Below, piece after piece: positions 38,374 through 53,104 of a DNA stretch of 64,000 bases. How positions within the stretch are numbered: position 1 is the first letter of the stretch; each line of letters opens with the position of its first letter. This DNA is from an uncultured delta proteobacterium. GTDB lineage: Bacteria; Desulfobacterota; Binatia; Binatales; Binataceae. Under the pieces are notes generated by a model. The model was given only the letters and a program-made list of their open reading frames with translations. It was not told where the DNA came from and did no database searches. The position numbers and the translations under genes are program-made. The stretch lies in assembly GCA_963842085.1 (NCBI GenBank), contig CAWJET010000001.1:2528001-2592000 (forward strand), given 5' to 3'.

Positions 38374-41343
38374 ATGAGTGGATATCCCGCCGCTGAGAAT
38401 CCTCCCGCCGCCGGTCGCTTGCAATACCGATTTACCTCTGCGCACCAGCGGCTTCGCGAAACCGGTGCGCTGGATCGAATCATTTGTATCGGCTTGTTAA
38501 TCGGCACGATGGCGCTGGTCGGATGGGTGCGGCTGTTGCCCCACGCTCTAGGCGGCGTCGAGAGACCGGCCGCGGTCCTTGCGCGCGAAATGATCGCCGC
38601 CGAAGCCTACGGGCAACTGCCGGCTGATTCGCCGCAGCGGCGCGCCCCGATCGATCAAACGGTGCGCGCGTGGATGAGGGATCATCCCGCCGAATTCCAG
38701 AAATTGGATCACGAGATCGTCGGCCTGCTCGCTTCGGAATTTCGCTATATGGGTGACGACGGCCGCAAACACGTCTTCCTGGGTGACTATGACAGCTACC
38801 ACTGGCTGCGAATGGCCCGCAATTATCTGCAAGCGGGAACGACCTGCGATCGCATCGTAGACGGCATCTGCCGCGACACCTACACCAACGCACCGGTAGG
38901 CCGGATCAACGTCTATAACCGCTCGCTGCATATCGCTGCGATTATCACACTCAACCGCCTAATCACTCTTTTCAGGCCCGGGTTTCCGATTCCCGCCGGC
39001 TCCTTCCTGGTGCAGGCGTTGATCGGGATGCTCGGGGTCATTCCCGCCTTCGCGATAGGGCGCCGGGTCGCGGGTAATCTCGGCGGTTTCTGTGCCTCGA
39101 TCGTGCTGGGACTCAACCCGCTCTTCCTGGGACGGAGTCTTGGAAGCGACGACGACGTCTGGAATGTCGTCCTCCCGCTCTTCACGGTCTGGGCGCTGAT
39201 CGAGGCGTCGGCCGCGCCGTCATATCGCCGGCAGATCGCTTACGCGACTCTCGGCGCGGTGTTCGTCGGCCTGCACGCCGCTTCATGGAGCGGATGGCCG
39301 TTCGCCTATGGTGTCCTGATGATCGCGCTGCTCGCGAATCTGCTCTTCGAGTCGATCAAGCTGGCGCTGCGCAGAGCACGATCGGAAATTTCATCCGGAG
39401 CCGGAGTCCGACGCGCGGCTCTGGTCGTCGCGGTCTTTTGCTTTTCGGCGTGGATTACGACCTCGCTAGCAGGCGCCTCGTACTTTGCGACCGCACGACG
39501 CATTGCACGACCGGTAGCCGCCGTACTGCGGATTCATCCGGGCGGAGCGGACGTGGCTGCGGGCTCGCGTCCGAGTCCGCCCGGCGAGAGCGTGTGGCCG
39601 CGTAGTTTTTCCTTCGTCGAGGAGCTCAAGAAGGGCGACGCGACCCAGTTCGCGCTCTGGATGGGCGGGGAATGGGTGTTGTTCGCGGGCTGCCTTGGCC
39701 TGCTCCTGTTGGCCCTCCCGCACCGACGATGGAGATGGTGGGACTTCGCCTTGCTGATCGGCGCTGCCGGTCTTTATCGGTATGGGCTGACCGCCTCGCT
39801 CACAGGCGATTGGCAACTTCCGGCGCTGATCGCTGCGCCCATCGCGGTGGCTGTTCTGATCGACCTGACGCCGAATGCCCGACCTCCGCAAGAGGATCGA
39901 AGCGCGGTTTTGATTGTAACAGTCTGGTTCTGCGCAGCGCTGTATCTGAGCTTCTCGGCCGTGCGTTTCATCACGCTCCTCGCCGTGCCCTTTGCGATCG
40001 CGTTCGGTGCGATTCCCGGCCGCGCGCATCTATGGATCAGCAGGCTCATCCGTGAACGCCAGCCGCGCTACCCGGGGCCGGTGAGCGCTGCGGTCTTCGT
40101 GCTGCTAGCCGCGTGGACAATTGTGCCGGCCAAAGCCGGCTACCTGGAGGCGCGCAACTATATGCCCGACATCAACCAGGCCTGGTGGACGACGCTGGAG
40201 GACTTGTGCGAGCAAAGCCCGCCCAACGCTATCATCAACGCGGATTGGATCTATGGATACTGGATCAAGTACGCGGCGGAGCGGCGCGTCGTGGCGGACG
40301 GGGGCTCGCTCTCGACGCACATTCCGTACTGGCTCTCGCGCGCGCTGCTGGCGCCGAATGACAATCAGGCGGTAGGCGTGTTGCGGATGCTCGATTGCGG
40401 ATCGGACGCGATGCCGCAGCCGGAGGGCCAACTGGGAGCCTACGGCAAATTGATTGCGCAGGGCCTCGACCCGATAGCGGCTCAATCGATGGTGCTGGAG
40501 ATCGCGGGTCTGGACTTCGCCGCCGCCAAGGCTCGCCTGGCGCGCAGCGGGTTGGGCGAGGCGGCACAGGCCAGCGTGCTGGCTTCCACCCATTGCGACG
40601 CGCCGCCCGCGTACCTGATTCTTTCCACCAAAATGCTGCGCTTGGGGTGGTCTCAGCTCGGTAACTGGGATTGGGACTTCCGCCGCGCCTATGCTTACGA
40701 GAACGAGCGATCGATACCGGCAGCCGCCGCGGTTGATGATCTTGCCGCTCGCTTCGGGATGCAGCCGGCGGACGCGCGCACGCTCTTTCAACAGGTGCAC
40801 GGCCCGCATTCGGACGAAGACGCACAACGATTCATCGCATCGGCGCAAGCCCTCCGTGCGGGATGGATGCCATGCGGCGGTCTCACCCGCGGCGAGCTGG
40901 TTTGCACCAGTAACCTGCCGCTATCGCAGCGCCCAACCATAACCGGCCTCGTCTATCGGCCCACCGACACTACGCTGAAAATTGGTTTTCTGTCCGACCA
41001 CGGCGAGGTTCAGCCGCGGGACGAGACGCCGGCGATCGTACTGATCGCGGGCGACAAGGAGATCGTTGAGCATACAGTGGATTCGCCGACCGACCCGGAC
41101 GTGGCGGTGATGGTCGACCTGGTGCATTCTAGGGCCCTAGTCGGCCCGTCGAATCTGATCCGCTCAACCTTCACGAGGCTGGTGCTGCTCGACGGCGACT
41201 ACAGCCCGCTCTTCACCAAAGTCTATAAAGCCACAGTGATCGGAGAGACTGTAACCGCGTGGAAGATCAACTGGCCGGACCTTGAAAGATCGAGCTCGGG
41301 CCCGAACCCGAAACAACCGTCCACGCCTTCACCCGGCGCGTAA
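38374..41343 (+). CDS. STT3/AglB/PglB-family oligosaccharyltransferase
   Basis: GDYDSYHWLRMA (EL1 Asp); LGRSLGSDDD (DxD); SWSGW; FVEEL (TIxE/SVSE-like); RFITLLAVP; IINADWIYGYWIKY..RRVVADGG (WWDYG-position variant); many TM helices plus a soluble C-terminal domain. Confidence 0.88.
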   Translation: MSGYPAAENPPAAGRLQYRFTSAHQRLRETGALDRIICIGLLIGTMALVGWVRLLPHALGGVERPAAVLAREMIAAEAYGQLPADSPQRRAPIDQTVRAWMRDHPAEFQKLDHEIVGLLASEFRYMGDDGRKHVFLGDYDSYHWLRMARNYLQAGTTCDRIVDGICRDTYTNAPVGRINVYNRSLHIAAIITLNRLITLFRPGFPIPAGSFLVQALIGMLGVIPAFAIGRRVAGNLGGFCASIVLGLNPLFLGRSLGSDDDVWNVVLPLFTVWALIEASAAPSYRRQIAYATLGAVFVGLHAASWSGWPFAYGVLMIALLANLLFESIKLALRRARSEISSGAGVRRAALVVAVFCFSAWITTSLAGASYFATARRIARPVAAVLRIHPGGADVAAGSRPSPPGESVWPRSFSFVEELKKGDATQFALWMGGEWVLFAGCLGLLLLALPHRRWRWWDFALLIGAAGLYRYGLTASLTGDWQLPALIAAPIAVAVLIDLTPNARPPQEDRSAVLIVTVWFCAALYLSFSAVRFITLLAVPFAIAFGAIPGRAHLWISRLIRERQPRYPGPVSAAVFVLLAAWTIVPAKAGYLEARNYMPDINQAWWTTLEDLCEQSPPNAIINADWIYGYWIKYAAERRVVADGGSLSTHIPYWLSRALLAPNDNQAVGVLRMLDCGSDAMPQPEGQLGAYGKLIAQGLDPIAAQSMVLEIAGLDFAAAKARLARSGLGEAAQASVLASTHCDAPPAYLILSTKMLRLGWSQLGNWDWDFRRAYAYENERSIPAAAAVDDLAARFGMQPADARTLFQQVHGPHSDEDAQRFIASAQALRAGWMPCGGLTRGELVCTSNLPLSQRPTITGLVYRPTDTTLKIGFLSDHGEVQPRDETPAIVLIAGDKEIVEHTVDSPTDPDVAVMVDLVHSRALVGPSNLIRSTFTRLVLLDGDYSPLFTKVYKATVIGETVTAWKINWPDLERSSSGPNPKQPSTPSPGA

Positions 41344-41380: not shown

Positions 41381-42676
41381 TCAAGCGCCGTTCAGCAATC
41401 CCTCACAGCAGGCGATCACGGCCACAGCCGCACCCGGGGCGGCGAAGTTTCGCATGCGATTCGATGCGGCCATCCAGACCTCGCGGTCACGCAACACCGA
41501 CGTGATGTGCGCAGCGAGCTTTTCCGGCTCCCAGGCCTCTTCAGTCACCCAACGGGTTCCGGTCCGGGCGGAAAATGCGCGCGCGGTGTAAAGCTGGTGA
41601 TTGTGAGCCACGGAAGCCATCGGAACTATAAGTGCTGGAAGCCGAAGGACCGCAAGTTCGGCAAGCGTGTTCGCTCCCGCGCACGAGATCGCGAAGTCCG
41701 CCCATCGGTAGGCTTCAGCCATGTCCTCGATATAGCGCGCGGTGCGCGCCTTCACGCCGCAGGCAGCGTACTGGGCGACCACCCCCTCTGGCCCGTCAAG
41801 GCCGGCCCGATACCCGGTCTGATGCAGCACCTCCAGCGCCGGGACGCTTTGCTGAAGGAGTTCGAGCAGCCGAGGCACCCGCTCGTTGAGAAAAGCCGAG
41901 CCCAGCGAGCCGCCGGTGACCAGAATCCGCGCGGGACGACCGCCGCCCGGAGCGATGCGCACCTCGAGCGCCAGCTTTATGATCTCGCCGCGAATGGGCG
42001 TGCCGGTCACCACTGTGCGCTCAGGCGGAAACCACTTGCCTGCCTCCTCGAACGTGACGCAGATCCGGTGGACCAGCCGGCCGAGGACCCGGTTGGTGAG
42101 CCCCGGAACTGGATTGGACTCGTGAACCACCGTGCGCAGGCCCAGCGAGCGCGCTGCCAGCAGGGTACCCGCGCAGGCGTAACCGCCGAAGCCGATCGCA
42201 AGCTCGATCCGTTCGGCCCTCAAGATCGCCCGCGCGCGAACGAAGCCGGAGCCGAGATTCGCCAGAGCGCGCGCCTTTCCCGAGATTCGCTCACGCAGCA
42301 TCGGAGAGGCCGCGATCGGTGCGAACCGGTATCCGCTCCGGCTGGCGGCCTGCGACTCGAGACTGCATTCGCGTCCGAAGATCAGGATCTGCGCGCGATC
42401 GCTCGCCGCGGCGTAGTTCTCGGCGAGCGCAAGTCCCGGGTAGGTGTGGCCGGCAGTGCCACCGACCGTGATTGCGATACGCCGAGGGCGGGCGACTCCG
42501 GACGAAGCGTGGTTGCGGTCGGCTCCGTTCGACGCGTGGGACACGCCGTAGCGGTGCGGCGAGTTCTCTGCGAACGACACCGCGCCGGACTGCCGCGCAG
42601 TCAGGGCACCACGCTGATCCTGAACGGAAACGTTACTCACGAAAGAAGACCGCGCCACCACGCGATCCGCGCGCAC
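41381..42676 (-). CDS. MurG-like GT28 UDP-GlcNAc transferase outside a dcw cluster (start probably downstream of 42676)
   Basis: GGTAGH, GFGGY, HESN.VPG.TN, TGTPIR, TGGSLGS, AGANTLAE and HQ..A motifs. Confidence 0.88.
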   Translation of the reverse strand: MRADRVVARSSFVSNVSVQDQRGALTARQSGAVSFAENSPHRYGVSHASNGADRNHASSGVARPRRIAITVGGTAGHTYPGLALAENYAAASDRAQILIFGRECSLESQAASRSGYRFAPIAASPMLRERISGKARALANLGSGFVRARAILRAERIELAIGFGGYACAGTLLAARSLGLRTVVHESNPVPGLTNRVLGRLVHRICVTFEEAGKWFPPERTVVTGTPIRGEIIKLALEVRIAPGGGRPARILVTGGSLGSAFLNERVPRLLELLQQSVPALEVLHQTGYRAGLDGPEGVVAQYAACGVKARTARYIEDMAEAYRWADFAISCAGANTLAELAVLRLPALIVPMASVAHNHQLYTARAFSARTGTRWVTEEAWEPEKLAAHITSVLRDREVWMAASNRMRNFAAPGAAVAVIACCEGLLNGA

Positions 42677-42822: not shown

Positions 42823-43749
42823 CTAGCGCAATCGGTGCGGGCTGTTCCCGGGACCATACAGATAGCCCATCAGCTCGCCGGCGGCATGGAAGTGCAGAAT
42901 CACGACGATTAGCGGAAAGCTCTTTAAGGCCTGCCACCGATAAGCCGGCTTGCGGACGACCATCCGTGCAGCGATCCGCAGGCTGTCTTTAGCGACTCGC
43001 AGAGGCATCAAGAGGGCGCGCAAAACGTGGTATATGCACTGTGCGCGACCTAACTTGGCTTGGGCAAAGCCGGCACTGGTGCGACCGTCGTGATAGTGGA
43101 TTAGACAATTACCTAGCGCACCAAGCGGCAGCACGTGGACGACCACGAGGCGATCGTCGCTAATCAGGATTCGGCCAGAACCACGCAGGTCCCTCGTGTA
43201 ATCGCTCTCTACGACACCGTGGGGAGGCAGATCCTCGGGCAACGCCCAGCGCTTATACGAAATGTTAGCCTGACCGGCGATGGTGGGGCGCTCTCCGTTT
43301 GGTATAGGGGGCAGAAAGGCACCGCCGGAGATGAAGAAACTCGCTCGATCCCACAGACTGTCGACGGCGCCATTGTCAACCACGCCACCTATCACGGCCG
43401 CCTGAGGATTCTCCCGATGCGCGCGCAGCACCTGCTCGCACCAATCTGGCGCCACCCGGCAATGGTCTTCAGTGACGGCAACAACCTCGCCGCGGGCTTC
43501 GGCGAGACCGATAGCGCGTAATTGAAACACGGTGTCGCCGGGCCGGCGCAGCCATCGAACGCCTGCGTAACCGTGATTCTCGCACAAGCCCTGGCCGTGT
43601 CCATCGACCACGACTAGCTCCGCTCCCAGAGCCCGCGTCTGGGCATATACCGAATCCAAGACACCGCGCATCTCCAGCCATGGCTGGCTGGTGGCTATGA
43701 CTACAGACAGAGGAGGAACACACTCGGCGAGCGACCTATCATCCTGCAA
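42823..43749 (-). CDS. GT2/GT-A fold glycosyltransferase
   Basis: PLSVVIAT, ELVVVD, LRAIGL..ARGEVVAVTEDH, VIGG.V, ANISYKR. Confidence 0.8.
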   Translation of the reverse strand: MQDDRSLAECVPPLSVVIATSQPWLEMRGVLDSVYAQTRALGAELVVVDGHGQGLCENHGYAGVRWLRRPGDTVFQLRAIGLAEARGEVVAVTEDHCRVAPDWCEQVLRAHRENPQAAVIGGVVDNGAVDSLWDRASFFISGGAFLPPIPNGERPTIAGQANISYKRWALPEDLPPHGVVESDYTRDLRGSGRILISDDRLVVVHVLPLGALGNCLIHYHDGRTSAGFAQAKLGRAQCIYHVLRALLMPLRVAKDSLRIAARMVVRKPAYRWQALKSFPLIVVILHFHAAGELMGYLYGPGNSPHRLR

Positions 43750-44017
43750 AGACCGCTCCTCTCACGGTTCGATTATTTGTCGGGGCTTCCGTTTGAATCT
43801 CCGATTCCAACTGGCCGTATAGACCGAACGGCCTTCCTCTGCAAGGCGTGCAGCCGGGTTTTAGTCCACTCTGTTTCCAGCGGCACCGCATAGGGCCGGT
43901 TTCGCGGCAGGCGTGCAAACAACGCGCGGTTGACACAACCGCCTGCGGACTCTATCAACGTACAGTCAGCGAAACAGGCGTAGTTTTTTTCCCGCCTGAA
44001 GTCGCCGCCCCATCCGT

Positions 44018-45256
44018 ATGCGAGTAGTGATTGTCGTCCTCGGGGATTTCGGCCAAAGTCCCCGCATGCAGTATCACGCTCTGGCGTTAGCCGATTCGGG
44101 CAGAGATGTAGAGGTTATTGCATATACCGGCTCTGCGCCGTTTCGGGCGGTCAGTGAAAATCCGCGGATCACGATTCATCTGACGTACGCTCCGATCGCT
44201 GCCACGCGCCATTTGCCGGGGTTACTGTTCGTGGCCTGGCAATTCATGCGGCTCTGCGGTCAGGGTCTGGGCCTGCTGTGGAACCTTCTGCTGACCGTCG
44301 GCAAGCCTGACGTAGTACTGGTGCAGAATCCCCCAGCCGTCCCAACCTTGCTGATCGCGCTGGTCGCCGCGCGCCTTCGATCGGCGCGGCTCGTAATCGA
44401 CTGGCATAACTTCAGCCATGCGATGCTCGCGCTCAGGCTGGGATCGGATCACTATGCGGTGCGAATGTTGCGATGGCACGAGCGCGCGGTCGGGCGCCGC
44501 GCCGACGCGCATCTGTGCGTCTCGCGCGCGATGCAGTCCGAGCTTCGCGCGCACTGGCAGATTCCCGGCGCTGTCGTCCTGTACGATCGTCCCGCTGAAA
44601 TGTTCACGCCGACGCCGCCGGAGGCGCAGCCCGCGGTGCTCCGCCGCGTCCTGGCGGGCGTCGCTTCCGCCCAGGACGACGGCCGGCGGCCCGCGATTGT
44701 CGTATGCCCTACGAGCTGGACTTCGGATGAAGACATTTCGATTCTGATTCGGGCCGCGGCGCGCTGCGATGAAATGGTCCGAACCGGCAAGAGCTTCGCT
44801 GAACTGCTGATTCTTATCACCGGCCGTGGCGCGCTGCGCGATCAACACGAGGAGGAGATCCGGAAGTTGACGCTGCGAAGAATCCATCTGCACACGCTGT
44901 GGCTTGCGGCCGAAGATTACGCGCTATTGCTGGGCTGCGCCGACCTCGGCGTCTCGTGTCACAGGTCGGCCTCGGGAATCGACCTGCCGATGAAGATCGC
45001 GGATCTGTTCGGCGCGGGAGTGCCGGTCTGCGCGCTGGACTACGGTCCCGTTCTCGCCGAACAGGTGCGCCACGGCGCCAATGGCCTCCTGTTCGCCGAC
45101 GCCGAACAGCTAGCCACGCAGCTCTACGAATTGTTCGAGGGCTTTCCCGTCCATACGCCGCTGCTGGATCGCCTGCGTGACCAGGTCCGCGGCCAGCCCC
45201 GGATTTCCTGGCGCGACGGATGGAATACCGAGGCAGCTCATGTCTTTGCGGATTGA
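44018..45256 (+). CDS. ALG1-like chitobiosyl-PP-lipid beta-1,4-mannosyltransferase (GT33)
   Basis: VLGDFGQSPRMQYHA, QNPPAVP, IDWHN, LYDRP, TSWTSDED, ITGRG and WLAAEDYALLLGCADLGVSCH.SASGIDLPMKIADLFG match the eukaryotic ALG1 signature blocks. Confidence 0.93.
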   Translation: MRVVIVVLGDFGQSPRMQYHALALADSGRDVEVIAYTGSAPFRAVSENPRITIHLTYAPIAATRHLPGLLFVAWQFMRLCGQGLGLLWNLLLTVGKPDVVLVQNPPAVPTLLIALVAARLRSARLVIDWHNFSHAMLALRLGSDHYAVRMLRWHERAVGRRADAHLCVSRAMQSELRAHWQIPGAVVLYDRPAEMFTPTPPEAQPAVLRRVLAGVASAQDDGRRPAIVVCPTSWTSDEDISILIRAAARCDEMVRTGKSFAELLILITGRGALRDQHEEEIRKLTLRRIHLHTLWLAAEDYALLLGCADLGVSCHRSASGIDLPMKIADLFGAGVPVCALDYGPVLAEQVRHGANGLLFADAEQLATQLYELFEGFPVHTPLLDRLRDQVRGQPRISWRDGWNTEAAHVFAD

Positions 45257-45274
45257 CCGTCGCGACGGACCGTC

Positions 45275-46489
45275 ATGAGACAATCGCTGCGGATCGGTTT
45301 CGTCCATCCCCAGCTAGGCGTCGGAGGTGCCGAACGCCTGGTGCTCGACGCCGCAAGCTGTCTTCAGCAGGCTGGCCATCGCGTTACGATTTTCACCTCG
45401 CGTCACAATCGCGACCATAGTCTTGACGACGCGCGTCACGGCGCGGTCGAGGTCCGCACTTACGGGGACTTCCTGCCGCTTGACATCGCCGACCGCATGC
45501 TGGCGCCATTTAATGTTGGCCGGACCTGCTACGCCGCTTTCCGCCTGGCGATGAGCCGCGAGCACTTCGACGTGATCTTCACCGACCTGGTGTCACAATC
45601 GATTCCGATACTGCGGCTGATGACGCGGGCCAAAATCATCTTCTACTGTCATTTCCCCGACCGGTTGCTCGCTCCGCAACGCGGCGGTCTCTACCGCTGG
45701 TACCGCATCCCCATCGACTGGTCGGAACGAGTCGCCATCGGCATGGCGCATCTAGTGATCGCCAACAGCAGATTCACGGCCTCGATAATCGGTCGCACTT
45801 TCCCGCGGCTCGGCCCGCCACAGCTGCTCTATCCCGGGGTTGACGTCGCGAGCTTCGCGAGCAACGGCCGAATCGCTCACGACGACTCGATCATGCTGCT
45901 TGCGATCAACCGCTACGATCGCCGCAAGAACACCGGCCTCGCGATCGAGGCGCTGGCCGGGCTCGAGGCGCGGCTGCCGACCGAAATCTTCCGCCGCGTG
46001 CAACTGGTGATTGCCGGCGGCTTCGACGACCGCAGCCGCCAGAACCACGAAGTCCTGCGCGAGCTGCAAGTGCTGGCAAACCGGCCTGCTCTGACCGGCA
46101 AAGTGGTCTTTCTGCGCTCGCCCGACGACCGGCAGATTCAAGAGCTTCTTTCGCGCTGTCGATGCGTGGTTTATACCTCGGAGTATGAGCATTTCGGCTA
46201 CGTACCGTTGGAGGCTATGGCCGCCGCGCGGCCGGTGATATCGGTGAACACCGGCGGTCCGGCGGAGACGATTGTGGATGGCACCACCGGCCTGCTCTGC
46301 TCGGCCAGGCCGGCGGCTTTTGCCGACGCTCTCGCCGGCTTGGTGGCGGACCCCGACGGTGGCGATCGACTGGGCCGGGCCGGCCGGGCGCACGTGGCCG
46401 CAAAATTCTCGAAAGCGGTCTTCGGCGCGCAACTCGAACAGATCGTCGAGGAAGCGGTTGGCAACTCCCGTAATTCAGGACTTGAATAG
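45275..46489 (+). CDS. ALG2-like alpha-1,3/1,6-mannosyltransferase (GT4)
   Basis: FVHPQLGVGGAERLVLDAA, GDFLP, FYCHFPD.LL, YRIPIDW.E, NSRFT, INRYDRRKN, AGGFD.R and EHFGYVPLEAM match the ALG2 signature blocks. Confidence 0.92.
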   Translation: MRQSLRIGFVHPQLGVGGAERLVLDAASCLQQAGHRVTIFTSRHNRDHSLDDARHGAVEVRTYGDFLPLDIADRMLAPFNVGRTCYAAFRLAMSREHFDVIFTDLVSQSIPILRLMTRAKIIFYCHFPDRLLAPQRGGLYRWYRIPIDWSERVAIGMAHLVIANSRFTASIIGRTFPRLGPPQLLYPGVDVASFASNGRIAHDDSIMLLAINRYDRRKNTGLAIEALAGLEARLPTEIFRRVQLVIAGGFDDRSRQNHEVLRELQVLANRPALTGKVVFLRSPDDRQIQELLSRCRCVVYTSEYEHFGYVPLEAMAAARPVISVNTGGPAETIVDGTTGLLCSARPAAFADALAGLVADPDGGDRLGRAGRAHVAAKFSKAVFGAQLEQIVEEAVGNSRNSGLE

Positions 46490-48335
46490 CCGCGCATCAC
46501 ACGGTCGGAGCTCCCGCTTCCCAGCCATCCGAGTTTTGGCCAGCTGCTTCGCGATGCTTCCCGGCGCAATCCGATGGCGCTGGGCGATACTCGCGCCGAT
46601 TGCATTCCTGCGCGGCACGCTCGAGGCCATAGCGGCCGGGGCGGTGTTCGCGCTGATCAAGATCATCAGCGATCCGCCCGCGATCGCTCACCTGCCAGTC
46701 GTCTCAAGGGTCGCATCGATGCTGCCCTGGCGCGGCGCCCCGGCCCAGATCGTCGCGCTGACCGGACTGGTCGCGCTTTTTTACCTGTTCAAGAACCTGT
46801 TTGCCCTCGGCATGGAATACTTCACCCACAAGGTCGTGGGTGAATCGGTGTTGGCGCTCAAAAGTACGATGATGAGGGGCTATCTCGCGATGCCCTACCC
46901 GTTTTATCTGCGCCGCAACTCCGCGGATCTGATCTGGAACGTCGACGCCGCGGTGAACCGGGTCTGCGAAGAAGGAATGTTGCCGGCGGTCGCCGTGGTG
47001 TCGGAAGTTCTGGCCGCTGCGAGCATCGCCGCGGTGCTGGTGTACACCGCGCCAAAGATTACCCTGATCGCCGGATGCCTGCTGGGCGGCGGACTCGCCT
47101 TGCTGCTGCGACTCACGCGCGCGATGGCGCATCGCTATGGATCCGAGAGGGACCGGCTGTCACGCGGCATTCTGCGCGATCTCCAGCAAGCCTTCGGCGG
47201 AGTCAAGGAGATCAAGGTGCTCGGCCGCGAACAGTTTTTTGTCGGGGCGCTCGAGCAGAAACTGCGCGGCATCCTCAAACTCGGATACCTCGCCAAAACC
47301 CTCGAGACCAGCGCGCCGTTGTTCACTGAGACCCTGTTCGTGGGCGGGGCGCTGGTCGTGATCGCGCTGCTGAGCGCAAGGGGCGCGGTCCGCAGCGAAG
47401 GGCTGCCGCTGCTGGCGCTGTTCTCCTATGCCGCGTTCCGGATCGTTCCGTCCGTCAACCGGATCGGGTGGCGGATCAATCAGATCCGCGGCGTGGCGGT
47501 ATCGGCCAGCAATCTCTACGACGACTATCTGCTCATAGCCGGTGTCGAGCGCGGCAACGCCGACGTTGATGACGGTCATGCAGTGATGCTCCACAGCGCA
47601 ATCGAATTCGAGCGCGTTTCGTTTACGTACCCGGAGGCCGGGCAATCGGCGCTGCATGAGATCTCGCTTACGATTCGCCGCGGCGAATCAATCGGCGTCG
47701 TGGGACCTACTGGCGCGGGCAAGAGCACGTTCGCCGACCTCCTGGTGGGATTGCTCACTCCCTCCTCGGGCCTCGTTCTGATCGACGGCCGAGACCTGTC
47801 TGATCGGCGGTTGGCCTGGAAGCATCGGATCGGCTACGTGCCGCAATCAATCTTTCTCCTCGACGACAGCCTGACCCGCAACATTGCGTTTGGCTTTGCC
47901 GACGCCGAGATCAAGCTTGACCGCGTGCGCGCCGTGGTCCGAATGGTGCAACTCGATCAGTTGGTCGCCACGCTGCCGGCGGGCCTCGACACCGTGGTCG
48001 GTGAGCGCGGCGTTCGCTTCTCCGGCGGCGAACGGCAACGCGTCGGGATCGCCCGCGCGCTCTATCACGATCCCGACCTGCTGGTATTCGATGAGGCCAC
48101 CTCCGCCCTCGACCAGGCCACCGAGGCCGACGTGACGAACGCGATTGAGACGCTGCAAGGCCGCAAGACAATGCTGGTCATCGCCCATCGCCTGGCTACG
48201 GTAAAGCATTGCGATCGGCTGGTCTTCATCGCCGACGGACGGATCCGCGCGTGCGGCAGCTACGATGAATTGATGCGCGACGTCGACGAATTCCGCCGAA
48301 TGGCGGCGGCAGGCGAAACGCGCTCGGCAGGCTGA
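46482..48335 (+). CDS. ABC exporter (TMD+NBD), PglK-like lipid-linked oligosaccharide flippase
   Basis: TM domain with YLAMPYPFYLRRNS, GGVKEIK and AAFRIVPS.NRI; GPTGAGKS Walker A; FSGGERQR signature; LVFDEATSALD; TTG start overlapping the ALG2 stop (alternative ATG at 46554). Confidence 0.88.
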   Translation: MNSRASHGRSSRFPAIRVLASCFAMLPGAIRWRWAILAPIAFLRGTLEAIAAGAVFALIKIISDPPAIAHLPVVSRVASMLPWRGAPAQIVALTGLVALFYLFKNLFALGMEYFTHKVVGESVLALKSTMMRGYLAMPYPFYLRRNSADLIWNVDAAVNRVCEEGMLPAVAVVSEVLAAASIAAVLVYTAPKITLIAGCLLGGGLALLLRLTRAMAHRYGSERDRLSRGILRDLQQAFGGVKEIKVLGREQFFVGALEQKLRGILKLGYLAKTLETSAPLFTETLFVGGALVVIALLSARGAVRSEGLPLLALFSYAAFRIVPSVNRIGWRINQIRGVAVSASNLYDDYLLIAGVERGNADVDDGHAVMLHSAIEFERVSFTYPEAGQSALHEISLTIRRGESIGVVGPTGAGKSTFADLLVGLLTPSSGLVLIDGRDLSDRRLAWKHRIGYVPQSIFLLDDSLTRNIAFGFADAEIKLDRVRAVVRMVQLDQLVATLPAGLDTVVGERGVRFSGGERQRVGIARALYHDPDLLVFDEATSALDQATEADVTNAIETLQGRKTMLVIAHRLATVKHCDRLVFIADGRIRACGSYDELMRDVDEFRRMAAAGETRSAG

Positions 48336-48347
48336 GCAAGCGAAGCG

Positions 48348-49192
48348 ATGGATTTTGGATCTTCGTTAAGTTGGCGCCGTTACTCGCGCGGACTCGGTTC
48401 GAACGCGAAGACCTGGCCCGCTGGCCCGACGCATTCGCTGAGCGCCAGCGTTGTCCCAGCCGAGGTTGGCTCCCACGTCGATACATACGCCGCCACTGAG
48501 ATCCAACAAGCGGAACAGCGCGAGCAACTCGGGCTCCCAGGTTCGGATCAGGAATAGGGTGCTACCGATCGCGACGTCGCGCAAGTCAATCCGGAGGCGA
48601 AAATGATCGGCGGCGATAACCGCCCGCGGGTAAATACGCCGGCGGAAAGGGGTGATCCAATGTCGCCGAGCGATCGGCGCTGGGAGAGCGAAAAGAGACC
48701 ACCTGGCTGTGGCTTAATTCACACAACTGGGGAGACAACCGGATCGTGTCGGAACGCAAAGCTGGCGAACAATATGAGTCAGTAGCAGTCAAAGTGGGCG
48801 ACGAGATCCTGTCGGCGCTGCCGGCCGGCGCGATCAAGCTGGTGAAGGTCGACGCGCAGGGCTACGACCTGTTCGTGGTGAAAGGTTTACGCGACTCGCT
48901 GATGCGCAGTCCCGACGCGGTCCTGGCCGTGGAAGTCGCGCCAGGGCACTTACGTGAAGCGGGCACCTGCCCGGGCGCGTTCGTCGCATACCTGGTCGAG
49001 CAGGGTTTCCGCGGCTGGGAGCTACACCCTCATCGCGCATTTCCGGTCCTTGCACCCCAAGACTACGAACTCAGCGACGACGGCGGGGAAACGAACCTGG
49101 TGTTGTCTCGCCGGCCAGAAGCGCTCGCCCGCGCGATTGGCAGGATGTTTCCCGGCTTGACCGGATCTTCAGCTCCGCGCATCGAGCGCTAG
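48348..49192 (+). pseudogene. FkbM-family methyltransferase broken by an internal inversion (48374-48680) and indels
   Basis: The minus strand carries WEPE...CIDVGANLG...VGPAGQVFAFEP; the plus strand carries ALG...NWGDNRI...KLVKVDAQGYD..VVKG. Confidence 0.78.
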
Positions 49193-50118
49193 CCCCGCTC
49201 TGCGGCCTTCGGCGCAATGCGGTTTGGCTCCGGCCTTGACAGTCGCTGCCTGGCCAGGCCGAGGTACAGTTTCGCCAACAGCCGCATTCGCTGCGCGAAG
49301 GGAACAATCGGGACATCGCCCAGGATCTCATCCCGCAAGTCCCACCAATCCGCCCAAAGATCATGGAATATGGGATGGGCCGTCGGGAGCAAACGGTAAG
49401 CGTCCTCGGGCCGCCAAAACCAGGGCTTACCCAGGTGGCTGAAGTGAACCAGCATCGCCATCCGCCGAGCGCGCTCGGCATCTCCGAAGTAAAACGGACC
49501 GGTGGCGGAGCACCACTCCGAATTCAAACAGCCATACTCGTCGGCGAGGAAATGAATCTCATCGTCGAACTCCAGATTGATGATATTCATGTCATACAGG
49601 CGCTTCTCAAAGGCGGAAGCGAAGTGCCGTTGAACCCGATCCCAATTGCCCATTGATGGGGTTACGACCAGCAACAGGCTGGTCGCCTTAAACTGTCGCG
49701 TCCAGTAGGCGCGCGGAGCCGCGATGGTCTGCGCAAAAGGCAAGGTGAAAAGATGGTCGAGATTCTGGAGCGGAAGTGAGTCCGAGTCGATGAAGACCAC
49801 CCGCTCGTACTCCACGAGCTGAAAAATCCGCAGCTTGGTAAGACAATCGCGGTAGTACTTGCCGCGGGTGAACCGCAGCGGTTCCACCTCTCTTAGAATG
49901 AAGTTCGCGTGGCGGGCCCTGGTTACCATGGCCGGCGACACGCCGTGGTAGATGAAGACGAACCCGATATCGCGGCCGGCGCCAGTTCTGCGCAGCGCCG
50001 TCGCGGCAATGATCGCGCCTGCGGCGTACGCGTCGTCGGTCGCATAAAAGACGTATGCAAACCGGTTCACGGCCGCTCGTGATCCGCCTAATTCCTCACT
50101 CGTGCTCAAGGTCTGCAC
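49189..50118 (-). CDS. GT8 glycosyltransferase, fungal GNT1/glycogenin-like
   Basis: FAYVFYATDDAY, TKLRIFQLVEYERVVFIDSD (DxD), NLDHLF, AAPRAYW, YDMNIIN, VHFS..GKPW. Confidence 0.85.
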   Translation of the reverse strand: MQTLSTSEELGGSRAAVNRFAYVFYATDDAYAAGAIIAATALRRTGAGRDIGFVFIYHGVSPAMVTRARHANFILREVEPLRFTRGKYYRDCLTKLRIFQLVEYERVVFIDSDSLPLQNLDHLFTLPFAQTIAAPRAYWTRQFKATSLLLVVTPSMGNWDRVQRHFASAFEKRLYDMNIINLEFDDEIHFLADEYGCLNSEWCSATGPFYFGDAERARRMAMLVHFSHLGKPWFWRPEDAYRLLPTAHPIFHDLWADWWDLRDEILGDVPIVPFAQRMRLLAKLYLGLARQRLSRPEPNRIAPKAAERG

Positions 50119-51323
50119 TCTGGCGGCTCTTCTCCGCTCTTCGGCGACGACGCCAATCTGATCGCGGGCGCGTTCCGAACCGGCGACACCTGGAGGTAAT
50201 CACACACTGCCTGGAGACGACTCACGAAGCGCTCCGAAGTGAACAAGTTGCGGCGCGACGCGATATGATTGCGCAGGCTCGCCTGACAGTCCGGGTCGCG
50301 CAGCGCGCGCAGAATTTTGTGCACCGCGTCCTCGCGCGAGTAGTAGATCAGACGTTCGTCGTCGCCGACGATCTCGACCTGCCCGCCGCTGTTCGGAACG
50401 AAGGTGATACATCCAGCGCTGACGAGTTCGGCGACCGCCATCCCGAAGGGCTCTTCGTCCATCGCGTGGATGCCGTAGCGATGACTCGCAATCAACTCGA
50501 CGAGCTCCGGTCGCGATATGTTTTCGTGCAGATGGACCCAGGGCGCGTTGGCCTGAACCAGGCGCCGGATCGAGTCAAGGTAGACGGGGTCCCATCGATT
50601 GCCGACCACATGGAGATGCACCTGGGGACCGGCCAGCCGCACCGCGGAGAGAATCTCGATCATCAGTTCGATCCGTTTCTCACCGGAGATCCGCCCGATG
50701 CATACGAAGCCTTCCTTGCGCCGATCCCACGGCACTTCGGGAAACTTGCCAGTGGCAGGAGGATAAATCACCACCGGCTCGATCCCGAATACCCCGCGGA
50801 TAGCGCGGGCCGTGAACTCCGAGTTGGCCAGTGTAAGATTGCTCTTCATCCTGTCGATCGAAAACCCGGTCAGGCGCTCAGCGATCGCTTCATAAGCGCG
50901 CACGGCGGCTGAAGAGTGATACCAGCTCAGCGATACGGGATCTTTCGACAACGCTTCCGGGAAGTGGATGTACTGAATTCCGCGCGGCCCCAGATCAGCC
51001 TCGTTAGCGGCTGTAATCACCGCGTCGAAGCGCCCGGCGCAGCGCCGTGCCTCCATAAATACATAGAGATCTCGGAGCCCGACAGCCGGCGTTGGGAGCA
51101 TCTTCGCCAGCCGATCCACCCATGGCTTTACAGTAGTGGCTTCGATTTCCGAGGGTTGAAGCTCGGTCCCGAAAGACCAGTTCAGGGCCGCGAAATCCAC
51201 CGGTTCCCAGGTGAGCAGGTTGAGCCGATAGTCACGCTTGAGAGCCTCGAGGATCCAGGCGGCGAGACCGTCGGCACCGCTTACCGATCCAATTCTGCGC
51301 TGTGCGAACAGGATACGCTTCAT
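50106..51323 (-). CDS. ALG11-like GT4 glycosyltransferase (copy 1)
   Basis: SGADGLAAW, QYIHFP, LANSEFT, VIYPP, GRISGEK, GIHAMDEEPFGMAVAELVSAG, PNSGG. Confidence 0.75.
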   Translation of the reverse strand: MKRILFAQRRIGSVSGADGLAAWILEALKRDYRLNLLTWEPVDFAALNWSFGTELQPSEIEATTVKPWVDRLAKMLPTPAVGLRDLYVFMEARRCAGRFDAVITAANEADLGPRGIQYIHFPEALSKDPVSLSWYHSSAAVRAYEAIAERLTGFSIDRMKSNLTLANSEFTARAIRGVFGIEPVVIYPPATGKFPEVPWDRRKEGFVCIGRISGEKRIELMIEILSAVRLAGPQVHLHVVGNRWDPVYLDSIRRLVQANAPWVHLHENISRPELVELIASHRYGIHAMDEEPFGMAVAELVSAGCITFVPNSGGQVEIVGDDERLIYYSREDAVHKILRALRDPDCQASLRNHIASRRNLFTSERFVSRLQAVCDYLQVSPVRNAPAIRLASSPKSGEEPPECRP

Positions 51324-53095
51324 CGCGACCTAACCCGGTCCGCGCCCAGCCGCCGCTCGCGGAGATAGTCGCCGACCACTTCCCGAATCCGGCTCACGAA
51401 ACGCTCGGCCGCAAACAAGTTGCGGCGCGACGCGATGTGACTGCGCAGGCTCGCCTGACATTCGCTGTCACCTAGCGCGCGCAGAATCTTGTTCACCGCG
51501 TCCTGTCGCGAGGTGTAAGTCAGCCGTTCATCGTTGCCGACAATCTCGACCTGCCCGCCGCTGTTCGGAATGAAGGTGATGCATCCGGCGCTGACGAGTT
51601 CGGCGACCGCCATGCCGAAAGGCTCCTCGTTCATCGCATGGATGCCGTAGCGATGACTCGCGATCAGCTCGACGAGCTCCGGGCGCGATATTCCTTCGTG
51701 CAGATGGACCCAGGACGCGTGGTCCTGAACCAGCCGCCGGATCGAAGCCACGTAGCCGGGGGATTCTCCCTTTCCCACCACGTGGAGATGCACCGCTAGG
51801 CCGGCAGCCCGGACCGCGGACAAAATCTCGATCATCAGCTCAATCTGTTTGCAGGGTATGAGGCGCCCGACGCAAACGAATCCGTCCTCGCGCCGCTCCC
51901 AGGGCACGTCCGGAAATTCGCCAATCGCCGGCGGATACACCGTCATGGTCTCGACGCCGAACAATTCCCGGACGCTGCGTCCTGTAAAGTCCGAGTTCAC
52001 CAGCGTGAGATTTTTCCGCATCCGCTCCCATGAGACCCCGGTCAGGCGGTCGATCGTAGCGCGATACGTCCGTACTGCCGGCGCCAGCCACCAGTATGCC
52101 TCCGCTCTCGACGCGTTACGTCCGTTTTTCGGGGAGTGAATATACTGGATGCCGCGGAAGCCGACGTCAGCCTCGTTGTGGCCCGATAGAACCACATCGA
52201 AGCGGTCTGCGATCCGGCGGCTCCGCCTCCACAGATACTGATTCTCGATCCTGGTCAGAGATTTCTGCGCGACGGCACGGACCAGCGGGTTCATGACCAG
52301 GAATTCGGCGTCTGAAGCGCAAAGATCGGTCGCAAAAAAACGGTTCAATCCCTCGAGATCGGGAGGAGTCCAGGTCAACACAGTCAGCCGATAGTCGCGC
52401 TTCAGCGACTCGAGGATCCACGCAAGCAGGCCTTCTCCTCCGCCGGGCGGTTCGAGTTTGGATGCGACGATCAAAATGCGCTTCATCGGCGCCTGAACTG
52501 CTTCGGCCGGGAGCGCACTTCCGTCGAGCCTGGCTTGCGCGTGGTGGTCCTTCACGACTTCCAGCTCGTTGTGCAACTCCTCGGCTGGAAAGAACGCCGA
52601 GAAGCGGCGTTCGTATCTTGGCGGATTCCAATTGGCCAATCTGGCACCGACTCTCTCCAGGATGCGCGTCCGTGTTGGCGGAAAAACGAGCCACGTGTTG
52701 CGCCGCCTGAACCGCGGCTCGCCAAACGCGTTTGGGTGCTCGCCGGTGAAAAACTGGAAGCTGTAGTAGCCGAAGAAATGGCAATGCGTCGGGTCGGTGA
52801 ACGCATTGGGCGAGGAAAAGTGCGGCGTAACTATTTTGACTGTCGCGCCATGACGGCAGACGCGATGGATTTCCTCCATTGTGGCGACCGTGTCGTGAGG
52901 ATGTTCGATCACATGAGTCGCGATCACCGCTCCGAACCGATTGTCGGGAAACGGCCAGGGACGCTGATTGAGATCGTGCACGACATCCGCACCTACGTCC
53001 GCGCGCACGTCGACGTTGATCGCCCCCGCAATCAGGTTATGCCCGCAGCCGAGGTGCAGGACATCTTTCTTTCTTCTGGTCGTGGCTGTCCTCCA
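51320..53095 (-). CDS. SAM methyltransferase domain in frame with ALG11-like GT4 (copy 2; GT domain from ATG 52486); 5' end abuts an IS110 remnant
   Basis: VLHLGCG..INVD..ADVVHDL..PWPF..HVIEH..DPTH methyltransferase domain, then GGGEGLLAW, YIHSP, NSDFT, VYPP and GIHAMNEEPFGMAVAELVSAG. Confidence 0.75.
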   Translation of the reverse strand, partial: WRTATTRRKKDVLHLGCGHNLIAGAINVDVRADVGADVVHDLNQRPWPFPDNRFGAVIATHVIEHPHDTVATMEEIHRVCRHGATVKIVTPHFSSPNAFTDPTHCHFFGYYSFQFFTGEHPNAFGEPRFRRRNTWLVFPPTRTRILERVGARLANWNPPRYERRFSAFFPAEELHNELEVVKDHHAQARLDGSALPAEAVQAPMKRILIVASKLEPPGGGEGLLAWILESLKRDYRLTVLTWTPPDLEGLNRFFATDLCASDAEFLVMNPLVRAVAQKSLTRIENQYLWRRSRRIADRFDVVLSGHNEADVGFRGIQYIHSPKNGRNASRAEAYWWLAPAVRTYRATIDRLTGVSWERMRKNLTLVNSDFTGRSVRELFGVETMTVYPPAIGEFPDVPWERREDGFVCVGRLIPCKQIELMIEILSAVRAAGLAVHLHVVGKGESPGYVASIRRLVQDHASWVHLHEGISRPELVELIASHRYGIHAMNEEPFGMAVAELVSAGCITFIPNSGGQVEIVGNDERLTYTSRQDAVNKILRALGDSECQASLRSHIASRRNLFAAERFVSRIREVVGDYLRERRLGADRVRSR

Positions 53096-53104
53096 TGGGG
53101 ACGC

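What the first reader, a model, noticed from the sequence alone, without database searches (positions are those of the whole stretch)
44018..46489. Adjacent ALG1 and ALG2 homologues in pathway order in a prokaryotic operon
Seen: two intron-free ORFs 18 bp apart, followed by an overlapping ABC flippase gene. Both appear to lack the hydrophobic anchors of the eukaryotic enzymes: the ALG1-like protein starts directly at RVVIVVLGD, and the ALG2-like protein ends without a TM tail. Established: GT33/ALG1 is regarded as mainly eukaryotic. Inference: these are soluble or peripheral prokaryotic versions, either ancestral or acquired by HGT and adapted to operon structure.
Basis: partly seen in the sequence, partly recalled or inferred. 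Interest (0 to 1): 0.8.

Follow-up and report, generated by a model that had tools for sequence, protein, structure and literature searches.

The report
Bacterial ALG1–ALG2 pair in N-glycosylation cluster
A soil bacterium of the class Binatia carries true relatives of the eukaryotic mannosyltransferases ALG1 and ALG2 side by side, inside a conserved gene cluster that also encodes an STT3-type oligosaccharyltransferase, a MurG-like enzyme and a flippase-type transporter, so it looks like a bacterial version of the early eukaryotic N-glycosylation pathway.

Summary
There are two intact ORFs (44018-45256, 412 aa; 45275-46489, 404 aa), 18 nt apart. Neither has a membrane anchor. An ABC exporter gene follows, though the claimed overlap is probably an artefact of taking the longest ORF.

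The first protein belongs to the ALG1/GT33 family. It matches named eukaryotic ALG1 proteins at E 1e-81 to 1e-94 (40-48% identity) and shares the family motifs. The second carries both ALG2 signature motifs.

This is not new in itself. An October 2025 bioRxiv preprint already showed that bacterial ALG1 homologues (including one from Binatia) and bacterial ALG2 homologues are active.

What I did not find in print is the genomic context. In 47 related loci, the ALG1-like gene lies within about 10 kb of an STT3-type oligosaccharyltransferase in 30, a MurG paralogue in 31, an ABC exporter in 34 and a WecA-like phosphotransferase in 21. Thirteen loci hold all four.

The likely product is a lipid-linked Man3GlcNAc2-type glycan that is flipped and transferred to protein.

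One caveat applies to this genome: its transferase reads DWIYG where the family has WWDYG. The variant is real, seen in contigs of 4 runs.

The direction of transfer between bacteria and eukaryotes is unresolved.

The parts
38374..41343 (+). STT3/PglB/AglB-type oligosaccharyltransferase (989 aa, multi-span membrane protein plus a periplasmic domain). It is the only STT3 match in the genome.
   Evidence: Pfam STT3 E 2.8e-26, 93.4 bits against a cut-off of 24.5. Single match in the genome. A family profile hits 18 PDB sequences, all oligosaccharyltransferases. AF2 model: pLDDT 77.9, pTM 0.80. The top 20 Foldseek hits are all N-oligosaccharyltransferases; the best is PglB 5ogl at E 1.7e-14.
40243..40257 (+). 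The WWDYG sequon-binding motif position. It reads D624-W625-I626-Y627-G628 (GAT TGG ATC TAT GGA) in this genome.
   Evidence: Alignment to Pyrococcus AglB. In the family alignment A1, D is nearly invariant at position 626. DNA alignment with 4 close relatives. Of 120 homologues, 106 had a recognisable motif: 89 read WWDYG, and DWIYG appears only in the window's own protein. Contigs of 4 runs from 2 studies span the site with 0 differences.
41381..42676 (-). MurG-like GT28 glycosyltransferase. It is a second, divergent MurG paralogue. The longest ORF is 431 aa; homology starts near residue 60-66.
   Evidence: Pfam Glyco_transf_28 and Glyco_tran_28_C. TIGR01133 murG scores 230 bits, below the cut-off of 250. 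The canonical murG (277 bits) lies on the other contig, 2.7 kb from mraY. The two paralogues are 30% identical.
42823..43749 (-). GT2-family glycosyltransferase (308 aa). It is a variable part of the cluster.
   Evidence: Pfam Glycos_transf_2 E 1.5e-10. Found in 3 of 47 related loci.
44018..45256 (+). ALG1-like (GT33-family) glycosyltransferase, 412 aa, with no membrane anchor.
45275..46489 (+). ALG2-like GT4 glycosyltransferase, 404 aa. It has the G-rich loop GVGGAER (residues 15-21) and the EX7E motif EHFGYVPLE (residues 305-313).
   Evidence: The motif definitions come from the preprint.
46536..48335 (+). ABC exporter with fused permease and ATPase domains (MsbA/PglK type), a candidate flippase. 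The longest ORF would start at 46272.
   Evidence: Pfam ABC_tran and ABC_membrane. NCBIfam MsbA 266 bits and PglK 243 bits, both below their cut-offs. The start is inferred.
49189..50118 (-). GT8-family glycosyltransferase (309 aa).
   Evidence: Pfam Glyco_transf_8 E 1.8e-8.
50106..51323 (-). Further GT4 glycosyltransferase ('GT1b', 405 aa). Relatives of it lie beside ALG1-like genes in 14 of 47 loci.
   Evidence: Pfam Glycos_transf_1. It has no ALG2 G-loop, and its EX7E motif reads EPFGMAVAE. Synteny.
51320..53200 (-). Methyltransferase-GT4 fusion (626 aa). Its GT4 domain is 61% identical to GT1b.
   Evidence: Pfam Methyltransf_11/23 plus Glycos_transf_1. BLASTP comparison.

Best explanation
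The two genes encode bacterial members of the ALG1 (GT33, beta-1,4-mannosyltransferase) and ALG2 (GT4, alpha-1,3/1,6-mannosyltransferase) families. [quoted passage not shown]

Proposed order (inferred, not shown):
1. A WecA-like phosphotransferase makes polyprenyl-PP-HexNAc. This gene is encoded elsewhere in this genome but sits inside the cluster in 21 of 47 related loci.
2. The MurG paralogue adds the second GlcNAc.
3. The ALG1-like enzyme adds beta-1,4-mannose from GDP-Man.
4. The ALG2-like enzyme adds the two branching mannoses.
5. The other glycosyltransferases and the methyltransferase decorate the glycan.
6. The ABC exporter flips it.
7. The oligosaccharyltransferase transfers it to protein.

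Both mannosyltransferases lack membrane anchors and presumably work as peripheral enzymes. In this particular genome the transfer step is uncertain, because the transferase has DWIYG in place of WWDYG.
For: ALG1 membership:
- P0001 finds 996 family clusters at E<=1e-30.
- These include named eukaryotic proteins: Diphasiastrum 3.5e-94, Anaeramoeba 'chitobiosyldiphosphodolichol beta-mannosyltransferase' 3.0e-89, Syssomonas 3.3e-84 and Blyttiomyces 8.4e-81.
- The motifs GxSPRM, DWHN and DLPMK..D.FG.G.P occur on both sides of the tree.
- JGI names the close relatives beta-1,4-mannosyltransferase.
- The model is a confident GT-B fold (pLDDT 93.6).

ALG2 membership:
- Both motifs that the preprint showed to be needed for ALG2 activity are present.
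- The two other GT4s of the window lack them.
- The nearest Atlas clusters are bacterial and plant ALG2.
- JGI names relatives alpha-1,3/alpha-1,6-mannosyltransferase.

Function:
- The preprint reports yeast alg1 complementation and in-vitro M1GN2 formation by a Binatia ALG1 homologue.
- It reports M3GN2 formation by three bacterial ALG2 homologues.

Pathway context:
- Of 47 related ALG1-like loci, 30 hold the STT3-type transferase, 31 the GT28, 34 the ABC exporter and 18 an ALG2-like gene (16 of them within 400 nt).
- 21 hold a WecA-like gene.
- 13 hold GPT+OST+GT28+ABC together, and 5 of those also hold an ALG2-like gene.
- The transferase family keeps invariant D140, D259 and E417 and a WWDYG consensus.
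- The window's transferase folds like PglB, STT3 and AglB.
Against: - No enzyme of this window was assayed, and donor and acceptor specificity are inferred from relatives. In the preprint, two of five bacterial ALG1 homologues and one of four ALG2 homologues were inactive.
- The window's transferase has I in place of the motif's D, a residue kept in 102 of 106 homologues with a recognisable motif. It may be impaired or may have a different acceptor rule.
- No WecA-like gene lies in the window.
- The ALG1-like gene is patchy: 47 of 401 genomes of the class, and 3 of 29 other genomes of the same genus.
- Two genomes with the ALG1-like gene (G038, 100% complete; G397, 92% complete) show no STT3 match at all. 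The glycan therefore need not always end on protein.
- In 29 of 47 loci no ALG2-like gene was seen in the fetched stretch, though many stretches end at a contig end.
- No glycoprotein and no transcript is known for these organisms (one search lists no RNA holder).
Confidence: 0.7

Rival explanations
1. The lipid-linked glycan is made, but its end use is not N-glycosylation of protein. It could be released as free oligosaccharide, or transferred to a lipid, a polysaccharide or an S-layer component by another route. In this genome the STT3-like protein would be inactive or re-purposed.
For: The window's protein has DWIYG instead of WWDYG. Two genomes with an ALG1-like gene have no STT3 match. 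The window holds extra GT2, GT8, GT4 and methyltransferase genes, as polysaccharide loci do.
Against: The STT3-type gene lies within about 10 kb in 30 of 47 loci, and often within 1-2 kb. The ORF is intact at 989 aa, with the acidic residues that are invariant in the family. Eighty-nine of 106 homologues keep WWDYG.
Confidence: 0.17
2. The two enzymes are ordinary GT4-like polysaccharide glycosyltransferases with another donor or acceptor, and the ALG names are only annotation transfer.
For: Pfam and NCBIfam give only generic GT4/GT1 domains. Two of five bacterial ALG1 homologues were inactive in the preprint's assays.
Against: Identity to named eukaryotic ALG1 is 40-48% over the full length, at E down to 1e-94. 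Family-specific motifs are present. A Binatia ALG1 homologue was active in the preprint. The genes are linked to a MurG paralogue and an oligosaccharyltransferase.
Confidence: 0.08
3. The pair was acquired recently from a eukaryote by horizontal transfer and has no long history in bacteria.
For: High similarity to eukaryotic proteins. Patchy distribution inside Binatia.
Against: The query and the other bacterial-side rows are separated from the clade holding all 4 named eukaryotes by one branch (support 97; 92). They are not nested inside it. The bacterial side is deep, with end branches of about 0.5-1.5 changes per column, and includes a named Phycisphaeraceae member. GC content matches the flanks at about 0.62-0.64. 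The partners are bacterial-type genes in conserved order.
Confidence: 0.03

Closest known systems
Bacterial ALG1 and ALG2 homologues characterised by Xu et al., bioRxiv 10.1101/2025.10.15.682550. I read the abstract, Results and Discussion.
   Same: The same two families in bacteria, including an ALG1 homologue from Binatia. The ALG2 signature motifs (GIGGAER-type loop, EHFGxVPLE) are present here. Those proteins complemented yeast mutants or made M1GN2 / M3GN2 in vitro.
   Different: The preprint's main text does not contain 'operon' or 'gene cluster', and it does not discuss a bacterial oligosaccharyltransferase, a MurG paralogue or a flippase next to these genes. I cannot tell whether its BiALG1 is close to this protein, because the accession tables are in the supplements.
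Eukaryotic ALG1 (GT33) and ALG2 (GT4) of the ER dolichol pathway
   Same: Full-length homology, shared motifs and the order of action. Gene order here follows pathway order.
   Different: There is no N-terminal anchor on the ALG1-like protein. The lipid carrier is presumably undecaprenyl-type rather than dolichol (inferred). The genes sit in an operon-like cluster. The chitobiose step is probably done by a fused MurG-like GT28 rather than by split Alg13/Alg14.
Campylobacter pgl N-glycosylation locus (PglB, PglK, PglA/H/I/J, PglC); recalled from general knowledge
   Same: One locus combines an STT3-family transferase, an ABC flippase-type exporter and several GT-B glycosyltransferases. The best structural match of the transferase is PglB. 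PglK is among the best NCBIfam matches of the exporter.
   Different: The glycan-building enzymes here are ALG1- and ALG2-type plus a MurG paralogue, not bacillosamine-pathway enzymes. The transferase is about 990 aa with a larger C-terminal region. Sequence similarity to PglB is very low (11-12% in the structural alignment).
Engineered E. coli pathway using yeast Alg13/14, Alg1 and Alg2 with PglB to make Man3GlcNAc2 glycoproteins. Papers were seen only as search listings; the details are recalled.
   Same: The same logical set of steps: chitobiose formation, ALG1, ALG2, flipping, single-subunit transferase.
   Different: That pathway is synthetic and mixes yeast and Campylobacter genes. This one is a natural bacterial cluster.
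Archaeal Agl24 (abstract of PMC8993221 seen in the listing)
   Same: A MurG/GT28-related enzyme proposed or shown to make the lipid-linked chitobiose core.
   Different: Agl24 is archaeal and was characterised experimentally. The window's GT28 is a bacterial MurG paralogue, and its acceptor is only inferred.

Membership tests
ALG1 / CAZy GT33 beta-1,4-mannosyltransferase | Full-length sequence homology to eukaryotic ALG1, stronger than to other GT-B families | tested here: met
   One search gives E 3.5e-94 to 8.4e-81 for proteins that names as eukaryotic; one is annotated chitobiosyldiphosphodolichol beta-mannosyltransferase. There was no PDB sequence hit at E<=0.01. BLASTP against the window's own GT4s gives E>1.
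ALG1 / CAZy GT33 beta-1,4-mannosyltransferase | Family motifs shared by eukaryotic and bacterial members (GxSPRM near the N-terminus, DWHN, DLPMK..D.FG.G.P) | tested here: met
   present in P0001 at residues 12, 128 and 322. DWHN occurs in 63/65 eukaryote-side rows and 75/76 other rows. The motifs were read from these alignments, not from a curated definition.
ALG1 / CAZy GT33 beta-1,4-mannosyltransferase | GT-B fold | tested here: met
   AF2 model with pLDDT 93.6 and pTM 0.92. The nearest solved folds are GT-B GT4 enzymes, for example MshA at TM 0.73-0.76.
ALG1 / CAZy GT33 beta-1,4-mannosyltransferase | Transfers beta-1,4-mannose from GDP-Man to GlcNAc2-PP-polyprenol | not testable with these tools
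   Reported for a Binatia homologue and two other bacterial homologues in the preprint. Not measured for this protein.
ALG1 / CAZy GT33 beta-1,4-mannosyltransferase | N-terminal transmembrane anchor (typical of yeast and animal ALG1, not defining) | tested here: not met
   The open frame allows only 6 codons upstream. There is no hydrophobic N-terminus. The anchor is also missing in 46 of 65 eukaryote-side rows, some of which may be truncated gene models.
ALG2 (GT4 alpha-1,3/1,6-mannosyltransferase) | N-terminal G-rich loop (GIGGAER type) and EX7E motif with valine (EHFGIVPLE type), both shown in the preprint to be needed for activity | tested here: met
   GVGGAER at 15-21 and EHFGYVPLE at 305-313. 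104 of 120 family members have the loop. The window's other GT4s lack it.
ALG2 (GT4 alpha-1,3/1,6-mannosyltransferase) | Closer to eukaryotic ALG2 than to ALG11 or other GT4 enzymes in a tree | not tested
Only leads are available: Atlas nearest clusters and JGI names.
ALG2 (GT4 alpha-1,3/1,6-mannosyltransferase) | [quoted passage not shown] | not testable with these tools
   Reported for three of four bacterial homologues in the preprint.
STT3 / PglB / AglB oligosaccharyltransferase | STT3 domain above the curated threshold, and the GT-C transferase fold | tested here: met
   93.4 bits against a cut-off of 24.5; the top 20 structural hits are all N-oligosaccharyltransferases.
STT3 / PglB / AglB oligosaccharyltransferase | Conserved acidic residues in the first external loops and in the EL5 loop | tested here: inconclusive
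   D140, D259 and E417 are invariant, and D261 is nearly invariant, in 19 family members. Their equivalence to the catalytic residues of PglB is inferred from motif context and was not checked by superposition.
STT3 / PglB / AglB oligosaccharyltransferase | WWDYG motif that binds the +2 Ser/Thr of the sequon | tested here: not met
   The window's protein reads DWIYG, and this was verified in contigs of 4 runs. The family as a whole meets the feature: 89 of 106 read WWDYG.
Bacterial pgl-type N-glycosylation locus | Transferase, flippase, initiating phosphotransferase and glycosyltransferases in one locus | tested here: inconclusive
   The window holds all of these except the phosphotransferase. 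Two PF00953 genes lie elsewhere in the genome. Thirteen of 47 related loci hold the whole set.

The most novel reading that the evidence does not exclude
Part of the Binatia, and probably some Myxococcota and other soil bacteria, naturally N-glycosylate proteins with the eukaryotic-type Man3GlcNAc2 core. They would use a compact cluster that unites counterparts of Alg7 (WecA-like), Alg13/14 (a MurG paralogue), Alg1, Alg2, a flippase and Stt3. This would be a free-living bacterial equivalent of the cytosolic half of the ER pathway, and a candidate source of ALG1 and ALG2 in the eukaryotic stem lineage.
Probability: 0.35. Interest if true: 0.85.

Novelty: new variant of a known kind. Interest (0 to 1): 0.62.

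Why it matters
**Origin of eukaryotic N-glycosylation.** The origin of ALG1 was called unknown in 2016 (Lombard, PMC4973528, passages read). A 2025 preprint argues for a bacterial origin from single genes. A 2026 Nature paper assigns the cytoplasmic N-glycan transferases to Asgard archaea (passage read). If bacterial ALG1 and ALG2 work inside a complete transferase-dependent pathway, the question shifts from single enzymes to a possible pathway module. It also becomes testable by cloning one cluster.

**Glycoengineering.** A natural single-subunit bacterial transferase that has evolved alongside ALG1 and ALG2 is a candidate enzyme for putting eukaryotic-type core glycans on proteins in E. coli.

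**Structural biology.** No member of the ALG1 family has a solved structure detectable by sequence. An anchorless, confidently modelled bacterial member would be a convenient target.

Tried and rejected
- The search for related loci with a single protein returned only 7 loci: six Binatia-type MAGs (81-92% identical, one at 66%) and one Myxococcales MAG at 45%. I used the genome search for breadth instead.
- phmmer of P0001 against PDB sequences gave nothing at E<=0.01.
- The promoter and terminator scans of 38000-49500 were at chance level (2 found against 2.2 expected; 12 against 8.8). They say nothing about transcription units.
- No RNA holder was listed for 43800-48400, so expression could not be examined.
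- Complex prediction on the ALG1-like and ALG2-like proteins with alignments A3 and A4 returned no verdict. This is not evidence either way.
- Hydrophobic-moment analysis of the long helix 68-93 of the ALG1-like protein gave moderate values only (mean hydrophobicity 0.50, moment 0.31). The idea that it is the membrane-binding element remains a guess.
- I considered that the DWIYG motif was an assembly error. I rejected this after finding identical contigs in 4 runs; X1 may be the source sample.
- I considered that the GT28 was the housekeeping MurG. I rejected this because a better-scoring murG lies beside mraY on the other contig.
- Literature searches that found nothing on the cluster: Binatota + glycosylation gave 0 papers. 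Binat* + oligosaccharyltransferase gave 5 papers (4 listed); only the Xu preprint is relevant. Terms on bacterial STT3 / PglB homologues / chitobiose gave 0. Myxococcota / N-glycosylation / eukaryogenesis gave 21 papers (15 listed); none of the listed titles or abstracts concerns such a cluster. GT33 + Alg1 + bacteria gave 2 papers, neither on this. The library lacks most subscription journals, so 'not in print' means not found in these searches.
Full report
**What is there.** The window has about 58-64% GC. It lies in a 4.93-Mb, two-contig genome that is 100% complete by marker genes. The closest database proteins carry names such as Candidatus Binatus sp., Binatales and Binataceae. The organism is therefore a member of the class Binatia, known from soil metagenomes. 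Seven DNA runs from two studies hold at least half of the sampled words of the region; they are six soil runs and one freshwater-sediment run.

**The two ORFs.** They are as described: 44018-45256 (412 aa) and 45275-46489 (404 aa), 18 nt apart on the + strand. The open frame of the first is only 418 codons, so it cannot carry an N-terminal anchor. Neither protein has a transmembrane-grade hydrophobic stretch. The ABC gene behind them overlaps only if the longest ORF (TTG 46272) is taken. Homologues align from the residue encoded by TTG 46536, which gives a gap of about 46 nt.

**ALG1-like protein: sequence evidence.**
- Pfam and NCBIfam give only generic GT-B domains.
- A full HMMER scan of 1.84 billion representatives finds 3421 proteins at E<=1e-3 and 996 at E<=1e-30.
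- I built a FastTree tree from 140 of the best 150 plus the query. Ten rows were dropped for lengths outside 380-620 aa. A 65-row clade (support 97) separates from the other 76 rows, which include the query.
- Of 10 rows looked up from the 65-row clade and its neighbour group, 4 carried names, and all 4 are eukaryotes: Blyttiomyces, Diphasiastrum, Syssomonas and Anaeramoeba. The last is annotated chitobiosyldiphosphodolichol beta-mannosyltransferase. The other 6 had no name.
- These four match P0001 at E 8.4e-81 to 3.5e-94 with 40-48% identity.
- Of 10 rows looked up from the other side, 3 clusters had names: two JGI 'beta-1,4-mannosyltransferase' and one Phycisphaeraceae bacterium.
- An IQ-TREE run with a mixture model on 49 rows kept the split (SH-aLRT 92). 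The two groups were defined from the first tree, so this is not an independent test.
- The motifs GxSPRM, DWHN and DLPMK..D.FG.G.P occur on both sides and in P0001.
- The Atlas lists eukaryotic ALG1 clusters among the nearest. JGI names many relatives beta-1,4-mannosyltransferase.

**ALG1-like protein: structure and anchor.** The AF2 model is a confident GT-B fold (pLDDT 93.6). The nearest solved structures are GT4 enzymes at 12-19% identity, and no PDB sequence matches at E<=0.01. An N-terminal hydrophobic segment before the first motif occurs in 19 of the 65 eukaryote-side rows and in none of the 76 others.

**ALG2-like protein.**
- It has GT4 domains.
- It has the loop GVGGAER (15-21) and the EX7E motif EHFGYVPLE (305-313). 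The preprint shows by mutagenesis that the G-rich loop and the valine of the EX7E motif matter for ALG2 activity. It also reports the loop as absent from archaeal homologues.
- 104 of 120 family members have the loop.
- The two other GT4 proteins of the window have no such loop and read EPFGMAVAE.
- The nearest Atlas clusters are 'ALG2 family' from bacteria and ALG2 from plants and arthropods, 408-419 aa long. JGI names relatives alpha-1,3/alpha-1,6-mannosyltransferase.
- I could not build a tree with eukaryotic ALG2 and ALG11, so this assignment is less secure than that of ALG1.

**What is already known.**
- Xu et al. (bioRxiv 10.1101/2025.10.15.682550; abstract, Results and Discussion read) found 204 bacterial ALG1 homologues by BLAST and one unreliable archaeal one.
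- ALG1 homologues from a gammaproteobacterium, a Polyangia member and a Binatia member complemented yeast alg1 and made M1GN2 in vitro. Two others did not.
- Three of four bacterial ALG2 homologues made M2GN2 and M3GN2, while six archaeal ones did not.
- Lombard 2016 had left the origin of Alg1 open. Kifer et al. noted that ALG1 has matches only in bacteria.
- The existence and likely activity of such genes is therefore not new.
- The preprint's main text has no occurrence of 'operon' or 'gene cluster', and it mentions oligosaccharyltransferase only for eukaryotes and in references.

**The surrounding cluster in the window.**
- Upstream lies a 989-aa STT3-type oligosaccharyltransferase at 38374-41343 (Pfam E 2.8e-26). 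It is the only one in the genome.
- Next is a MurG-like GT28 on the opposite strand. It scores below the murG cut-off (230 against 250 bits) and is 30% identical to the genome's own murG. That murG scores 277 bits and lies 2.7 kb from mraY on the other contig.
- A GT2 follows on the opposite strand.
- Downstream of the ABC exporter lie a GT8, a GT4 and a methyltransferase-GT4 fusion.

**The same neighbourhood in related genomes.**
- I searched a sample of the class with P0001. 47 of 401 genomes matched at E<=1e-30. That count includes the window's genome and one unpublished genome, G474, which I did not fetch. In the same genus, 3 of 29 other genomes matched.
- In a sample of the wider phylum, 3 of 301 genomes matched.
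- I fetched up to about 19 kb around the gene in the other 45 genomes of that class tally. I added two loci from named MAGs, one Binatia-type and one Myxococcales, and searched them with the window's proteins.
- Of these 47 loci, many cut short by contig ends, 30 hold the STT3-type gene, 31 the GT28 (21 within 400 nt) and 34 the ABC exporter. 18 hold an ALG2-like gene (16 within 400 nt), and 28 hold some GT4.
- A WecA-like PF00953 gene lies in 21 of the loci, in 20 of them together with the transferase.
- Thirteen loci hold phosphotransferase, transferase, GT28 and exporter together with the ALG1-like gene. Five of these also hold an ALG2-like gene.
- The window itself has no WecA-like gene. 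The genome has two elsewhere, each with a weak wecA match of about 80 bits.
- Three genomes whose ALG1 locus lacked the transferase have STT3 matches elsewhere, among them the Myxococcales genome. Two genomes (G038, G397) have none.

**The transferase.**
- An alignment of 19 family members shows invariant D140, D259, E417, W625, G628 and D642-G643, and a WWDYGYW consensus.
- A profile of this alignment hits only oligosaccharyltransferases in the PDB: 18 sequences, best E 6e-8.
- The AF2 model (pLDDT 77.9, pTM 0.80) matches PglB best (E 1.7e-14, TM 0.64-0.67 on the target). Human and yeast STT3 and AglB follow.
- JGI names relatives 'asparagine N-glycosylation enzyme membrane subunit Stt3'. NCBI names some 'STT3 domain-containing protein' in Binatia, Bryobacteraceae and Solirubrobacteraceae.
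- The window's own protein reads DWIYG at the WWDYG position.
- Among 120 homologues, 106 had a recognisable motif and 89 read WWDYG. The D is replaced in only 4: P three times, and I once in the window's own protein. One more has E.
- Contigs with no differences span the site in four runs of two studies, so this is a real variant. The same samples also hold relatives with the canonical codons.
- From general knowledge, the WWD residues bind the hydroxyl of the +2 Ser/Thr. This enzyme may therefore be weakened or may follow another acceptor rule.

**Mechanism proposed.**
- Shown here: family membership of the ALG1-like protein; the ALG2 motifs; the transferase fold; and conserved linkage of these genes.
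- Taken from the preprint: relatives have the ALG1 and ALG2 activities.
- Inferred: the MurG paralogue makes the chitobiose core; the ABC exporter flips the glycan; the further transferases decorate it; and the product is put on protein.
- Not known: which proteins are modified, and whether the enzymes bind each other. The complex prediction gave no verdict.

**Verdict.** The bare claim is already covered by a preprint. The conserved cluster around the pair was not found in the literature searched. It turns the pair into a candidate complete bacterial N-glycosylation pathway of eukaryotic type. This is a prediction that can be tested by cloning one locus.

Noticed in passing
window 11767-13371 (-), with 24-3917 (+), 8331-11000 (-), 15478-18396 (-): A second GT-C enzyme of the PMT/PMT_2 type (protein O-mannosyltransferase-like, 534 aa) lies among genes for very large, probably secreted proteins: NHL-repeat (1297 aa), pro-kumamolisin peptidase with DUF11 (889 aa) and a PA14-domain protein (972 aa). 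These could be glycoprotein substrates, but nothing was tested.
   Followed up: no
window 52535-53479 (+): An ORF with an IS110/IS116/IS902-family transposase domain (E 8.9e-9) overlaps the 5' end of the methyltransferase-GT4 ORF on the other strand. It may mark an edge of the cluster or a past insertion.
   Followed up: no
L036:11392-14181 (-) and L036:14253-17036 (-): One related genome has two STT3-type transferase genes in tandem next to its GT28, ALG1-like, ALG2-like and ABC genes.
   Followed up: partly
L011:6645-7911 (-) and L011:11264-12476 (+): In one close relative (83% identical ALG1-like protein), the GT28 and the ALG2-like gene each align as two pieces in different frames. These are either frameshifted pseudogenes or sequencing errors of that assembly.
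   Followed up: no
genomes G038 and G397 (loci L020/L021, L050): Two genomes of one genus carry an ALG1-like gene (41-43% identical) but show no STT3 match anywhere (100% and 92% complete). In G038 the ALG2-like gene lies 12.6 kb away. The glycan may have another use there.
   Followed up: partly
window 60616-61644 (+) and 57590-59851 (+): A polyprenyl synthetase (E 5e-58) and a flavin amine-oxidase/desaturase-like protein lie about 7-12 kb downstream of the cluster. Any link to the lipid carrier or to pigments is not known.
   Followed up: no
window 32554-33735 (-) and 34127-34549 (+): A sigma-54-dependent activator and a stand-alone response-regulator receiver lie upstream of the cluster. 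The stretch 34.5-38.3 kb holds only short ORFs without Pfam matches.
   Followed up: no
window 44219-44296 (residues 68-93 of the ALG1-like protein): The model shows one unusually long, rather hydrophobic helix in the N-terminal domain (mean hydrophobicity 0.50). It is a candidate membrane-contact element for an enzyme without an anchor.
   Followed up: partly
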